Origin: Escherichia coli
Lineage (GTDB): Bacteria > Pseudomonadota > Gammaproteobacteria > Enterobacterales > Enterobacteriaceae
Strand: one strand, 5' to 3'
DNA: 64,000 nucleotides
Assembly (NCBI RefSeq): GCF_002854065.1
Contig: NZ_CP024147.1
Shown: positions 29,101-32,100 of the stretch, piece by piece
How positions within the stretch are numbered: the first letter of the stretch is position 1
Layout of the letters: every line of letters begins with the position of its first letter
Made by a program: the position numbers

Positions 29101-32100
29101 CAACAGTCATGGTTTCTGCCGGGAAGATCATATCACCTTCGTTTTCACGGTCTTCATCATCAAGCACCATTACACCGCGTCCTTCACGCAGCGCAGCCAG
29201 TGCATTTTCAACACGTTCGAAAGGCGTACCAAAAGAGGAAAGTAGCGTCTGATTCATGGTAAAAAAAACCTCACTAAAATTATGGTTACCAGAATCAGGG
29301 CAGTCTTAGGAGTGGCGGCATATAGCCAAAATAACGTGAGCGGGTCCATGCCCGACAGAATCGTTACTCTCTCCCATCCGGACTCTAACCGTCGGCCCCG
29401 GAATTACACCGGATCTGCTGTCCTTTGAGTTCGCACCCAAAGCGCTCGCGGGCTTTCAACTGAGTTGATTTACCGCCGGTGGGGAATTTCGCCCCGCCCT
29501 GAGAATAAGCGGATTCACTATAACGCTAATGATTAGCGGCAGCAACGCATAGCTTCACATAATTCTGGTTTATGACTTACCCTTATCGCACTACAATGGC
29601 ACTCAACACCTATCAGTACAGGGAAACTACAATGATTGACCCGAAAAAAATTGAGCAAATCGCTCGCCAGGTTCACGAATCAATGCCTAAAGGAATCAGG
29701 GAGTTCGGGGAAGATGTGGAGAAAAAAATCCGCCAAACCCTACAAGCGCAGCTGACGCGTCTCGATCTGGTGAGCCGCGAAGAATTCGACGTACAGACGC
29801 AAGTCCTGTTACGGACTCGTGAAAAACTGGCGTTACTGGAGCAGCGCATCAGTGAACTGGAGGCGCGCAATAATTCGGTAGCAGATCTTCAATCTCCTCC
29901 GGCTATCCCGCCTATTGATAAAGCAGAATAAAGCAACACAAAAACGGGCCAGACGGCCCGTAATATCAGTGTTCTAATTCAAGTTCTCTGGTTTGCATCA
30001 TCTGTTGGCAATACCAGGCATAACGTGCGCAAAACCAGGTTCTATGTTCTTCATCCATGTTACCAGTAACGGCCAGAATATCGACCGGGCGACCTTCTGC
30101 GTGCATTCTGGCAAAACTACGCGCCAGGAAATCGAAATTATTTAAAGAATTAAGACTATGATCCATAAGCACATCCTCCAGTTATCGCATACCTTTTAAG
30201 GCCATATGCTTTTTCTGATTTCAGTATTCCCCAATCAGTGTAGTGCCTTTAAACATAACGTGCGTAAATATATTGTCCTCGATCACACTTTTTAGTGAAA
30301 AATAAAAAACCATATTAAAAGACTTTCTCTTCCAGAACTTCTCTAACATGTGTTATTATTAACAAAGATAAATGTAAGCAAGGAAACTATCCCAAAGTAA
30401 ATATTGCGTCACTAAATGGACATTGGAGTGACATATGATTTTATTCGCCGACTATAATACCCCTTATCTTTTCGCTATTTCCTTTGTACTGTTGATCGGC
30501 CTTTTAGAAATTTTTGCGCTTATCTGCGGTCACATGCTCTCCGGTGCTCTTGATGCACATCTTGACCATTATGATTCCATAACCACAGGTCATATTAGCC
30601 AGGCACTTCATTATCTCAATATCGGAAGATTGCCAGCTCTCGTCGTTCTCTGCTTGCTGGCTGGTTTTTTTGGTCTTATTGGCATCCTGTTGCAGCATGC
30701 CTGCATCATGGTCTGGCAATCACCACTGTCGAACCTGTTCATGGTTCCTGTCAGTTTACTGTTTACGATTATTGCGGTGCATTATACCGGTAAAATAGTT
30801 GCGCCCTGGATTCCACGCGACCATAGTTCAGCTATTACAGAAGAAGAATATATTGGTAGCATGGCATTAATTACCGGTCATCAAGCCACTTCAGGTAATC
30901 CCTGCGAAGGAAAACTCACCGATCAATTTGGCCAAATACATTATTTACTACTGGAGCCTGAAGAAGGAAAAATTTTCACTAAAGGAGACAAAGTGTTAAT
31001 TATTTGCCGACTTTCTGCAACGCGATATTTGGCGGAAAACAATCCCTGGCCCCAAATATTGTAATTTATTAATCAAAAGGAAATTTAATAATGGATGATA
31101 TTGTTAATTCTGTGCCCTCCTGGATGTTTACCGCGATTATTGCCGTATGCATTCTGTTTATTATTGGAATTATTTTCGCCAGGCTCTATCGTCGCGCTTC
31201 GGCAGAGCAAGCTTTTGTTCGTACTGGTTTAGGTGGGCAAAAAGTGGTAATGAGCGGTGGCGCAATCGTGATGCCGATCTTTCATGAAATAATCCCCATC
31301 AATATGAATACTCTGAAGCTGGAAGTCAGCCGCTCAACCATTGATAGCCTGATTACGAAAGATCGTATGCGCGTCGATGTAGTAGTCGCTTTCTTTGTGC
31401 GGGTAAAACCTTCAGTAGAAGGGATTGCCACCGCTGCCCAGACGCTGGGGCAACGCACCCTGTCGCCTGAAGACTTACGTATGTTGGTTGAAGATAAATT
31501 TGTCGATGCCCTCCGTGCAACAGCTGCGCAAATGACCATGCATGAGTTACAGGATACCCGCGAGAACTTCGTGCAGGGAGTACAAAATACCGTAGCTGAA
31601 GATCTGTCGAAAAACGGCCTGGAACTGGAAAACGTTTCACTTACCAACTTTAACCAGACCTCGAAAGAACATTTCAATCCGAACAATGCCTTTGACGCCG
31701 AAGGTTTAACCAAACTGACTCAGGAGACGGAGCGCCGTCGCCGCGAGCGTAACGAAGTTGAACAGGATGTAGAAGTTGCGGTGCGTGAGAAAAACCGTGA
31801 TGCACTTTCGCGCAAGTTGGAGATTGAACAACAAGAAGCGTTTATGACGCTTGAGCAGGAGCAGCAGGTTAAAACCCGTACCGCTGAGCAGAATGCGAAA
31901 ATTGCGGCTTTTGAAGCTGAACGTCGTCGTGAAGCAGAGCAGACGCGAATTCTGGCTGAACGACAGATTCAGGAAACAGAAATCGACCGCGAACAGGCCG
32001 TCCGCTCAAGAAAAGTTGAAGCTGAACGTGAAGTTCGCATTAAAGAGATCGAACAGCAGCAGGTCACCGAAATCGCTAACCAGACGAAATCGATCGCTAT

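What the first reader, a model, noticed from the sequence alone, without database searches (positions are those of the whole stretch)
29932..29965. Compact ubiK-glgS and qseC-mdaB junctions: K-12 genes absent here
ubiK and glgS are separated by about 35 bp, and qseC and mdaB by about 110 bp. From my recollection of K-12 gene order, K-12 has the ygiL-yqiGHI fimbrial operon (with an IS2) between yqiC and glgS, and ygiZ between qseC and mdaB. Together with the fit-like cluster and the ileX island, this marks the strain as a lineage with a different accessory complement at four sites in this window.
Basis: established knowledge. Interest (0 to 1): 0.3.

Follow-up and report, generated by a model that had tools for sequence, protein, structure and literature searches.

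The report
Unoccupied accessory-gene sites relative to K-12
This E. coli strain lacks two blocks of optional genes that the laboratory strain K-12 carries, a fimbrial operon beside ubiK and the small gene ygiZ beside qseC; such presence/absence differences between strains are common and already documented, so the finding is real but ordinary.

Summary
ubiK (29632-29931, +) and glgS (29966-30166, -) converge across 34 bp. qseC and mdaB are 109 bp apart. K-12 has ygiL-IS2-yqiGHI and ygiZ at these two places. A window-versus-K-12 alignment shows five indel sites, not four, because mqsRA is also absent here.

The two junctions have opposite histories. The ubiK-glgS junction is the ancestral, never-occupied state. 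E. albertii, a cryptic Escherichia, Citrobacter, Salmonella, Klebsiella and Raoultella all have glgS directly after ubiK, and the window keeps the ancestral UbiK tail (PPAIPPID). The K-12 operon is a 40% GC import. It replaced 73 bp, including the last 22 ubiK codons, and is flanked by about 100 bp of 13-16% diverged ubiK and glgS sequence.

The qseC-mdaB junction is a derived deletion of an hcp / lysozyme-like protein / ygiZ cassette. That cassette sits at the same site in Citrobacter, other Escherichia, Nissle 1917 and IAI39. K-12 keeps only ygiZ.

Among 5426 complete genomes, 38% share the compact ubiK-glgS junction, about 20% have no Yqi-type operon at either nearby site, and 15% share the compact qseC-mdaB junction. 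O157:H7 has the same configuration. The polymorphism is already known (Wurpel 2013), so interest is low.

The parts
29632..29931 (+). ubiK (yqiC), 99 codons plus stop; the ancestral long form of the gene
   Evidence: ORF. Annotated as ubiK in strain 100416, which is 99.96% identical. Pfam BMFP covers residues 1-78.
29862..29934 (+). 73 bp that K-12 replaces with 6638 bp. It covers the last 22 ubiK codons (tail [22 protein letters not shown]), the stop codon, and the first 3 bp of the spacer.
   Evidence: Breakpoints from blastn and alignments. A PPAIPP[VI]D-type tail is found in 38 of 80 species representatives.
29932..29965 (.). The 34-bp ubiK-glgS spacer, which is the reported finding. It is almost entirely filled by the glgS terminator.
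   Evidence: No Rfam family matches here. No remnant of fimbrial genes.
29934..29961 (-). Intrinsic terminator of glgS: stem-loop ACGGGCC-GTCT-GGCCCGT (29961-29944) followed by TTTTTGTGTT (29943-29934).
   Evidence: Terminator scan. Fold energy -16 kcal/mol, z = -3.9. The hairpin is conserved in E. albertii, a cryptic Escherichia, an EA/I-carrying strain and K-12.
29966..30166 (-). glgS, 66 codons, convergent with ubiK
29760..29861 (+). ubiK codons 44-77. The protein is the same as in K-12 but the DNA has 16 mismatches per 100 bp, against about 0.3% further upstream. This is the left recombination flank of the K-12-type allele.
   Evidence: Sliding mismatch count and alignment.
29935..30034 (-). 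The terminator and the 3' end of glgS, with 13 mismatches per 100 bp against K-12, falling to about 1% beyond. This is the right recombination flank.
28343..28603 (.). yqiD-ribB intergenic region. This is the empty state of the second, alternative site, where about 996 genomes carry the Yqi / ExPEC adhesin I operon.
8609..9958 (+). qseC
9954..9965 (.). Deletion scar at the qseC-mdaB junction. The qseC stop codon lies inside a tandem GGTAAG-GGTAAG, and 5 bp (GGGTA, 9959-9963) stand where other strains have 592 bp (K-12, ygiZ only) or about 1.7 kb (hcp / lysozyme-like / ygiZ).
   Evidence: The junction is identical in strains M114 and A30.
10068..10649 (+). mdaB
6867..6871 (.). ygiS-ygiV junction lacking mqsR-mqsA.
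10995..18298 (.). fit-like iron-siderophore ABC transporter, TonB-dependent receptor and RpiR regulator cluster between ygiN and parE. K-12 has 51 bp here.
   Evidence: The cluster is also present in Nissle 1917, SMS-3-5, O157:H7 and cryptic Escherichia.
53947..64000 (.). Island downstream of the tRNA ileX (53824-53899). It runs off the end of the window and includes an Ag43/Cah-type autotransporter.
   Evidence: It is absent from the otherwise near-identical strain 100416.

Best explanation
The two compact junctions are ordinary presence/absence alleles, and they have opposite histories.

(1) ubiK-glgS. The window carries the ancestral, never-occupied arrangement. Two convergent genes are separated only by the glgS intrinsic terminator, which may also stop ubiK transcription. 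The K-12-type allele arose once. A low-GC chaperone-usher operon (ygiL-yqiGHI, called 'Yqi-like') was imported as a block. The import most likely went through homologous recombination, with crossovers in the 3' part of ubiK and the 3' end of glgS, from a donor about 13-16% diverged. The donor's ubiK tail and terminator came with it, which is why K-12 UbiK ends differently. A related but distinct operon (Yqi / ExPEC adhesin I) occupies a second site 1.3 kb away, between yqiD and ribB, in other strains. The two operons are mutually exclusive, and this window has neither.

(2) qseC-mdaB. The window carries a derived deletion. The ancestral state is a three-gene cassette: hcp, a 236-aa protein with a lysozyme-like fold, and ygiZ (DUF2645). 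This is probably a type VI secretion effector-immunity module. K-12 lost hcp and the effector and kept ygiZ. The window's allele, shared with O157:H7, lost all three.

What is shown directly: the coordinates, the breakpoints, the outgroup gene orders, the allele frequencies and the divergence profile. What is inferred: recombination as the mechanism, the nature of the donor, the two-way action of the terminator, and the effector-immunity function of the cassette.
For: Polarity at ubiK-glgS:
- In every outgroup locus that has glgS, it lies 32-99 bp after ubiK (251 bp in Superficieibacter electus) and is convergent, with no fimbrial genes between. This holds for E. albertii, a cryptic Escherichia, eight Citrobacter, S. 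arizonae, Raoultella, Klebsiella and others.
- The window's UbiK tail carries the PPAIPP[VI]D-type motif seen in 38 of 80 species representatives. The K-12 tail does not.
- No remnant of fimbrial genes is present in the window.

Import of the K-12 allele:
- The insert is 40.2% GC against 49.6% in the flanks.
- The breakpoints are identical in K-12, O111:NM and IAI39.
- Mismatches against the window jump from about 0.3% to 16 per 100 bp at 29760-29861, and are 13 per 100 bp at 29935-30034 before returning to about 1%.
- There are no direct repeats, integrase or tRNA at the edges.

Population frequencies in 5426 complete genomes:
- 2067 have the compact ubiK-glgS junction.
- 996 are interrupted at the yqiD-ribB site.
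- 4354 hold any Yqi-type operon, which equals 3358 + 996, so the two operons are mutually exclusive and about 1072 genomes have neither.

The terminator is supported.

Polarity at qseC-mdaB:
- The hcp / 236-aa / DUF2645 cassette sits at the same site in Citrobacter, unclassified Escherichia, Nissle 1917 and IAI39.
- Its protein identities track those of the flanking QseC: in Citrobacter, QseC is 78% and the cassette proteins 64-75%; in unclassified Escherichia, QseC is 95% and the cassette proteins 89-96%.
- K-12 keeps ygiZ and the region upstream of hcp.
- The scar is identical in three different genetic backgrounds, and the compact allele occurs in 824 of 5426 genomes, including O157:H7.

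Cassette function:
- Hcp matches TIGR03344.
- The same gene triad recurs in other genomic contexts in Serratia and Pectobacterium.

Published work already describes Yqi and Yqi-like as related, mutually exclusive operons at different loci (PMC3559732). It also describes a 4,975-bp yqi cluster absent from K-12 and O157:H7 (PMC2771359).
Against: - No donor carrying the K-12-type ubiK tail or flanks was found among the 80 sampled species. The K-12 flanks are only 82-84% identical to E. albertii and the cryptic Escherichia. Introgression from another species therefore cannot be told apart from an old polymorphism maintained within E. coli.
- The + strand of the hairpin has no U-tract, so termination of ubiK at this hairpin is not supported by sequence.
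- Genome counts rest on coverage thresholds in BLAST summaries, not on per-genome inspection. A few genomes may be split for other reasons, such as IS insertions.
- Wurpel et al. associate Yqi-like with phylogroup E, but the O157:H7 genome I examined has neither operon.
- The effector-immunity role of the cassette rests on a predicted structure and on conserved gene neighbourhood only.
Confidence: 0.85

Rival explanations
1. The compact ubiK-glgS junction is secondary. An ancestor of this strain had the Yqi-like operon and lost it, either by deletion or by recombination with an 'empty' donor allele.
For: The operon decays often. K-12 has an IS2 in yqiG, IAI39 has an internal stop in the usher, O111 has a frameshift in yqiH, and other strains carry other IS elements. 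Loss is therefore plausible in general. Allele replacement by recombination would leave no scar. The states at these sites do reassort among lineages.
Against: A simple deletion could not restore the ancestral 22-codon ubiK tail or the ancestral flanks, and the window matches the outgroups there. No remnant of the operon is present. The nearest references, O157:H7 and SMS-3-5, are also empty.
Confidence: 0.08
2. The K-12-type and compact haplotypes are an old polymorphism maintained inside E. coli, not an import from another species. The 13-16% divergence next to the indel built up because recombination is suppressed around a large insertion.
For: No donor species was found. The K-12-type operon itself has two alleles about 5.7% apart, with 1557 records at 99% or more and 1739 at about 94.3%. 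This suggests long residence. The yqiD flank next to the other operon site is also strongly diverged, at 80%.
Against: A divergence of 13-16% is far above E. coli core divergence and close to the distance to E. albertii. The divergence drops within about 100 bp, as expected at recombination end-points. The insert has only 40% GC.
Confidence: 0.25
3. The compact qseC-mdaB junction is ancestral. The hcp / lysozyme-like / ygiZ cassette was inserted independently at this site in several lineages.
For: The cassette is mobile on a longer time scale. It is found in different contexts in Serratia (a 75-kb record) and in Pectobacterium. I did not obtain the qseC-mdaB region of E. albertii, E. fergusonii or Salmonella.
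Against: The cassette has the same site, orientation and boundaries in Citrobacter, unclassified Escherichia, Nissle 1917 (B2) and IAI39 (F). Its divergence tracks that of the flanking core genes. K-12 is an internal-deletion derivative of the full cassette. The compact allele has one identical scar with a small tandem repeat.
Confidence: 0.07
4. The short junctions are assembly or collapse artefacts.
For: None.
Against: The same junctions occur in 2067 and 824 complete RefSeq genomes respectively.
Confidence: 0.01

Closest known systems
Yqi-like chaperone-usher fimbrial locus (ygiL-yqiGHI of K-12), as typed by locus position in Wurpel et al. 2013 (PMC3559732)
   Same: This is the chromosomal site concerned (ubiK|glgS). 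The paper already reports that Yqi-like is present in only part of the species and excludes the related Yqi operon.
   Different: The window carries the empty allele. I add three points the parts of the paper I searched (keyword passages) did not give: the empty allele is ancestral, the insertion replaced the ubiK tail, and divergent homologous flanks came in with it.
Yqi / ExPEC adhesin I (EA/I) operon of APEC and UPEC strains (Antao et al. 2009, PMC2771359)
   Same: It is a related four-gene operon, 38-60% identical in protein sequence to the K-12 type. It lies in the same neighbourhood, between yqiD and ribB. The 4,973-bp span in strain Ecol_745 matches the published 4,975 bp.
   Different: It is absent from the window, where yqiD and ribB are adjacent. 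It is positionally equivalent to operons in Klebsiella, Enterobacter and Citrobacter.
E. coli O157:H7 (phylogroup E) gene order in this region
   Same: The configuration is the same: fit cluster present, yqiD-ribB adjacent, ubiK-glgS compact with identical UbiK and GlgS proteins, and qseC-mdaB compact. It is the closest reference genome at 99.1-99.2% identity.
   Different: The window is about 0.8-0.9% diverged from O157:H7 and carries an ileX island. The mqsRA state of O157:H7 was not checked.
Intrinsic terminators shared by convergent genes
   Same: A 7-bp GC-rich stem with a 4-nt loop sits between two convergent stop codons, with a U-tract for glgS.
   Different: There is no U-tract on the ubiK side, so two-way action is only a possibility.
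Type VI secretion peptidoglycan glycoside hydrolase effector-immunity pairs (for example Tse3-Tsi3 and Tge2-Tgi2) and orphan immunity genes
   Different: There is no sequence-level membership in any Pfam or NCBIfam effector family. The putative immunity protein (DUF2645) appears, from my reading of its sequence, to be a multi-pass membrane protein rather than a soluble periplasmic one (no topology prediction was run). The function is untested. The cassette is absent from the window.

Membership tests
Empty (ancestral) allele of the ubiK|glgS insertion site | ubiK and glgS are convergent and directly adjacent, with no coding sequence between them | tested here: met
   The spacer is 34 bp. tblastn with the fimbrial proteins gives only chance-level hits.
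Empty (ancestral) allele of the ubiK|glgS insertion site | The same arrangement is found in outgroup species | tested here: met
   In every outgroup locus that has glgS, it follows ubiK directly: 32-99 bp in nearly all, 251 bp in Superficieibacter electus.
Empty (ancestral) allele of the ubiK|glgS insertion site | The UbiK C-terminus is of the outgroup type | tested here: met
   The window has [12 protein letters not shown]. The motif is present in 38 of 80 species representatives and absent from K-12.
Yqi-like (ygiL-yqiGHI) chaperone-usher operon | Major subunit, usher, chaperone and adhesin genes lie between ubiK and glgS | tested here: not met
Yqi / ExPEC adhesin I operon | A four-gene operon lies between yqiD and ribB | tested here: not met
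   The window's intergenic region is 261 bp and matches the contiguous form found in 4429 of 5426 genomes.
Rho-independent terminator | A GC-rich stem-loop is followed by a U-tract | tested here: met
   Met on the - strand (glgS): 7 base pairs, 6 of them GC, followed by TTTTTGTGTT. Not met on the + strand (ubiK).
Rho-independent terminator | Transcripts end at this site | not testable with these tools
   Needs 3'-end mapping.
tRNA- or integrase-type genomic island at ubiK|glgS (K-12 allele) | Integrase, tRNA target, or flanking direct repeats | tested here: not met
   None is annotated. There are no direct repeats of 8 bp or more at the edges.
Type VI secretion Hcp-effector-immunity cassette (the allele missing at qseC|mdaB) | An Hcp (TssD) gene is present | tested here: met
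   Met in Nissle 1917: Pfam T6SS_HCP at 1.6e-19 and TIGR03344 at 2e-58. The gene is absent from the window.
Type VI secretion Hcp-effector-immunity cassette (the allele missing at qseC|mdaB) | The adjacent protein has a toxin fold | tested here: met
   [not shown]
Type VI secretion Hcp-effector-immunity cassette (the allele missing at qseC|mdaB) | A cognate immunity gene is always adjacent | tested here: met
   A DUF2645 gene follows the 236-aa gene in Escherichia, Citrobacter, Serratia and Pectobacterium.
Type VI secretion Hcp-effector-immunity cassette (the allele missing at qseC|mdaB) | Toxicity, neutralisation by the immunity protein, and T6SS-dependent delivery | not testable with these tools
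   Needs experiments.

The most novel reading that the evidence does not exclude
The compact qseC-mdaB junction marks complete loss of a type VI secretion cassette made of Hcp, a lysozyme-like peptidoglycan-degrading effector, and YgiZ as its immunity protein. On this reading, the K-12 y-gene ygiZ (DUF2645, no known function) is an orphan immunity gene. The roughly 15% of E. coli with the compact junction, including O157:H7 and this strain, would then be sensitive to an effector carried by about a quarter of the species, including Nissle 1917.
Probability: 0.5. Interest if true: 0.4.

Novelty: already known. Interest (0 to 1): 0.12.

Why it matters
As a finding about this window it matters little. 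It records that the strain has the empty alleles at two known variable sites, and it places the strain nearest to phylogroup E rather than B2 or D.

Two by-products are of some use to people who work with K-12 as the reference.
- K-12 UbiK, the protein used in published work on the Ubi metabolon, has a foreign C-terminal tail from residue 78 onward. This tail arrived with the fimbrial operon, and 38% of complete E. coli genomes and the related genera do not have it.
- K-12 ygiZ looks like the leftover immunity gene of a type VI secretion cassette. That gives a testable function to DUF2645.

Tried and rejected
- I suspected the 344 bp to the left of ygiL in K-12 might hold a decayed copy of the terminator and the 3' end of glgS. 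The Smith-Waterman score was at chance, with 92 of 300 shuffles scoring as well. Rejected.
- I looked for direct or inverted repeats at the edges of the K-12 insertion. There were no direct repeats of 8 bp or more, and only one 8-bp inverted match. There is no sign of transposition or site-specific integration.
- I searched for the donor of the K-12-type flanks among 80 species representatives. None is closer than 82-84%.
- The exact source strain is not among the complete genomes. Strain 100416 is 99.96% identical over window 1-53946 but lacks the ileX island. The best genomes that do carry the island are only 97-98% identical.
- Phylogroup typing by the Clermont markers is not possible from this window. 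I used identity to reference genomes instead. The UMN026 accession was not in the collection. My first coordinate guess for IAI39 landed in the wrong region.
- For the 236-aa cassette protein, Pfam, NCBIfam and a PDB sequence search found nothing. A single-sequence AlphaFold model was unusable at pLDDT 40. A 26-sequence alignment was needed.
- The 801-bp query across qseC-mdaB could not separate the compact allele from the ygiZ-only allele, because the tool joined the two pieces. I repeated the search with a 120-bp query.
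Full report
OBSERVATION

The window is E. coli chromosome running from ftsP to beyond ileX. ubiK occupies 29632-29931 on the + strand, and glgS occupies 29966-30166 on the - strand. The gap, 29932-29965, is 34 bp. qseC ends at 9958 and mdaB starts at 10068, a gap of 109 bp. Strain 100416 from the Gambia is 99.96% identical to window 1-53946, and it is annotated with the same genes and the same gaps.

In K-12 MG1655 the annotated order is ubiK - ygiL - yqiG::IS2 - yqiH - yqiI - glgS, and qseC - ygiZ - mdaB.

A blastn of the whole window against K-12 3150001-3240000 is collinear, with five indel sites:
- mqsRA is absent (window 6867-6871 versus 927 bp in K-12);
- ygiZ is absent (9959-9963 versus 592 bp);
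- the fit-like cluster is present (10995-18298 versus 51 bp);
- the Yqi-like operon is absent (29862-29934 versus 6638 bp);
- an island follows ileX (from 53947).

mqsRA is the fifth.

ANATOMY OF THE ubiK-glgS JUNCTION

The 34-bp spacer is essentially the glgS intrinsic terminator. On the - strand the stem-loop ACGGGCC-GTCT-GGCCCGT is followed by TTTTTGTGTT. Its fold energy is -16 kcal/mol with z = -3.9. The + strand forms the same hairpin but has no U-tract, so termination of ubiK at this hairpin is only a possibility. No Rfam family matches the spacer. The nearby matches are the FMN riboswitch of ribB (29362-29510) and two Sib RNAs.

The difference from K-12 does not start at the ubiK stop codon. 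Homology breaks at window 29861/29862, inside ubiK, and resumes at 29935, at the end of the terminator's T-tract. As a result the last 22 codons differ. The window encodes …[27 protein letters not shown] (99 aa). K-12 encodes …[24 protein letters not shown] (96 aa). The Pfam BMFP domain, residues 1-78, is intact in both forms.

WHICH STATE IS ANCESTRAL AT ubiK-glgS

I scanned one genome per species with the window's UbiK and obtained 80 loci. In every locus that has glgS, it lies 32-99 bp downstream of ubiK (251 bp in Superficieibacter electus) and is convergent, with no fimbrial genes between. These include E. albertii, a cryptic Escherichia labelled E. coli SCPM-O-B-8794, eight Citrobacter, Salmonella arizonae, Raoultella, Klebsiella, Superficieibacter and Pseudocitrobacter.

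A PPAIPP[VI]D-type tail is present in 38 of the 80 UbiK sequences, across many genera. The window has it and K-12 does not. The window has no remnant of any fimbrial gene at this site. The compact junction is therefore the ancestral state, and the K-12 operon is a gain.

HOW THE K-12 ALLELE AROSE

The insert without IS2 is 5.3 kb at 40.2% GC, against 49.6% in the flanks. Its two breakpoints are identical in K-12 (phylogroup A), O111:NM (B1, carrying the 94% allele of the operon) and IAI39 (F). This indicates one event. No integrase, tRNA or direct repeats mark the edges.

Mismatches between the window and K-12 show a sharp pattern:
- about 0.3% up to 29759;
- 16 per 100 bp in 29760-29861, mostly synonymous changes in ubiK codons 44-77;
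- unalignable sequence from 29862 to 29934;
- 13 per 100 bp in 29935-30034, covering the terminator and the 3' end of glgS;
- about 1% beyond.

This is the footprint of a block brought in by homologous recombination in the flanking genes. The block comprised the 3' part and tail of ubiK, the operon, the terminator and the 3' end of glgS, and the donor was about 13-16% diverged. On this reading the K-12 UbiK tail is the donor's tail.

No donor was found. The K-12-type flanks are only 82-84% identical to E. albertii and the cryptic Escherichia, against 87-92% for the window's flanks. An old polymorphism maintained inside E. coli therefore remains a live alternative. I give it a probability of about 0.25.

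A SECOND, ALTERNATIVE SITE

A search with the K-12 usher-chaperone-adhesin DNA found about 999 records with a roughly 65% identical operon. In strain Ecol_745 this operon lies between yqiD and ribB, 1.3 kb to the left of ubiK, and ubiK-glgS there is compact. Its span of 4,973 bp and its gene order match the 4,975-bp yqi (ExPEC adhesin I) cluster of Antao et al. That paper reports the cluster to be ExPEC-associated and absent from K-12 and O157:H7 (PMC2771359).

The proteins of the two operon types are 38-60% identical. Operons at the ribB-side position also occur in Enterobacter, Citrobacter, Pseudocitrobacter and Klebsiella. The K. spallanzanii operon is closest to the EA/I type, with 70% identity in the usher.

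POPULATION FREQUENCIES IN 5426 COMPLETE GENOMES

- ubiK-glgS is contiguous in 2067 genomes, or 38%.
- yqiD-ribB is contiguous in 4429 genomes, so 996 are interrupted there.
- 4354 genomes hold any Yqi-type operon.

Because 3358 + 996 = 4354, the two operons are mutually exclusive. About 1072 genomes (20%) have neither, and the window is one of these. Wurpel et al. 2013 had already described Yqi and Yqi-like as related, mutually exclusive operons at different locus positions (PMC3559732). The polymorphism is known.

THE qseC-mdaB JUNCTION

Here the polarity is reversed. Nissle 1917 (B2) and IAI39 (F) have three genes between qseC and mdaB, all on the - strand: hcp (159 aa), a 236-aa protein, and ygiZ.

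The same triad sits at the same site in Citrobacter and in unclassified Escherichia. Its protein identities track the flanking QseC:
- in Citrobacter, QseC is 78%, the 236-aa protein 74%, Hcp 75% and YgiZ 64%;
- in unclassified Escherichia the values are 95%, 96%, 94% and 89%.

K-12 retains ygiZ and the region upstream of hcp, but has 131 bp where hcp and the 236-aa gene should be.

The window has 5 bp (GGGTA) inside a tandem GGTAAG-GGTAAG. The junction is identical in strains M114 and A30, which differ in their backgrounds. The compact junction occurs in 824 genomes (15%), including O157:H7. About 3293 genomes have the ygiZ-only spacing, and about 1308 have a larger insert. The window's junction is therefore a derived deletion.

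WHAT WAS LOST AT qseC-mdaB

- 10.4 to MltE;
- 10.1 to Slt;
- 9.6 to MltC;
- 9.4 to the T6SS muramidase Tse3;
- 8.3 to goose-type lysozyme.

Foldseek ranks the same proteins first, but weakly. A glutamate in the WIESGG motif is invariant.

The hcp / 236-aa / DUF2645 triad also recurs in other genomic contexts, in Serratia and in Pectobacterium. This fits a type VI effector-immunity cassette in which YgiZ is the immunity protein and K-12 ygiZ is an orphan. No paper in the searched library connects ygiZ or DUF2645 with type VI secretion. This function is an inference and has not been tested.

LINEAGE

Across window 18299-29861 and 29935-39000, the window is 99.1-99.2% identical to O157:H7 TR01. 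It is 96.1-98.6% identical to K-12, Nissle 1917, Ecol_745, SMS-3-5 and IAI39.

O157:H7 has the same configuration as the window: fit cluster present, both Yqi sites empty, identical UbiK and GlgS proteins, and a compact qseC-mdaB junction.

The states do not follow phylogroups strictly:
- SMS-3-5 has neither Yqi-type operon, and it has the fit cluster and assT-dsbLI.
- IAI39 has Yqi-like, mqsRA and the full hcp cassette, but no fit cluster.

The mqsRA-less junction is the majority state, found in 3122 of 5426 genomes. The cryptic Escherichia loci also lack mqsRA and also carry the fit cluster.

VERDICT

The feature itself is an ordinary presence/absence polymorphism that is already documented. 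The added value lies in three points: the polarity at each junction, the recombination footprint with the chimeric UbiK tail in K-12, and the likely identity of ygiZ as an orphan immunity gene.

Noticed in passing
window 29760-29934; K-12 locus L001 3969-4131: K-12 UbiK, the form used in published Ubi-metabolon work, has a non-ancestral C-terminus from residue 78 onward. It lacks the PPAIPP[VI]D-type motif seen in 38 of 80 species representatives. The preceding 34 codons carry about 16% synonymous divergence, as if the 3' part of the gene came from another species together with the fimbrial operon.
   Followed up: yes
[not shown]
   Followed up: partly
window 6867-6871: The mqsR-mqsA toxin-antitoxin pair of K-12 is absent between ygiS and ygiV. 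The mqsRA-less junction is the majority state, in 3122 of 5426 complete genomes, and is also seen in cryptic Escherichia loci.
   Followed up: partly
window 5158-6765 (-) and 6874-7356 (-): ygiS has an in-frame stop at codon 200, and ygiV has one at codon 51. Both are also flagged as pseudogenes in the near-identical strain 100416.
   Followed up: partly
window 28343-28603; L085 10660-15632: The yqiD-ribB intergenic region is a second fimbrial insertion site. About 996 E. coli genomes carry the Yqi / ExPEC adhesin I operon there, as do Enterobacter, Citrobacter, Pseudocitrobacter and Klebsiella spallanzanii. In carrier strains the flank on the yqiD side is only about 80% identical to the window.
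   Followed up: partly
L001 5026-8866; L100 23671-26175; L106 6383-7131: The K-12-type Yqi-like operon is often inactivated. Examples are IS2 in K-12 yqiG, an internal stop in the IAI39 usher, a frameshift in O111 yqiH, and ISVsa5, IS1 or IS2 insertions in other strains. The operon also exists as two alleles about 5.7% apart, with 1557 records at 99% or more and 1739 at about 94.3%.
   Followed up: no
window 53824-64000: The island after the tRNA ileX includes an Ag43/Cah-type autotransporter. It is absent from strain 100416, which is otherwise 99.96% identical. No complete genome carrying the island is more than about 98% identical, so the source strain is not in the complete-genome collection.
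   Followed up: partly
window 26373-26409 (ygiC-ygiD junction): Ecol_745 and SMS-3-5 carry assT-dsbL-dsbI between ygiC and ygiD. The window, K-12, IAI39 and O157:H7 do not. This is a further variable site in the region.
   Followed up: no
window 32976-33124 and 33351-33500 (-): Two Sib antitoxin RNAs (sibD- and sibE-like, with ibs toxins opposite) lie between yqiK and hldE, as in K-12. The two copies are about 91% identical to each other.
   Followed up: no
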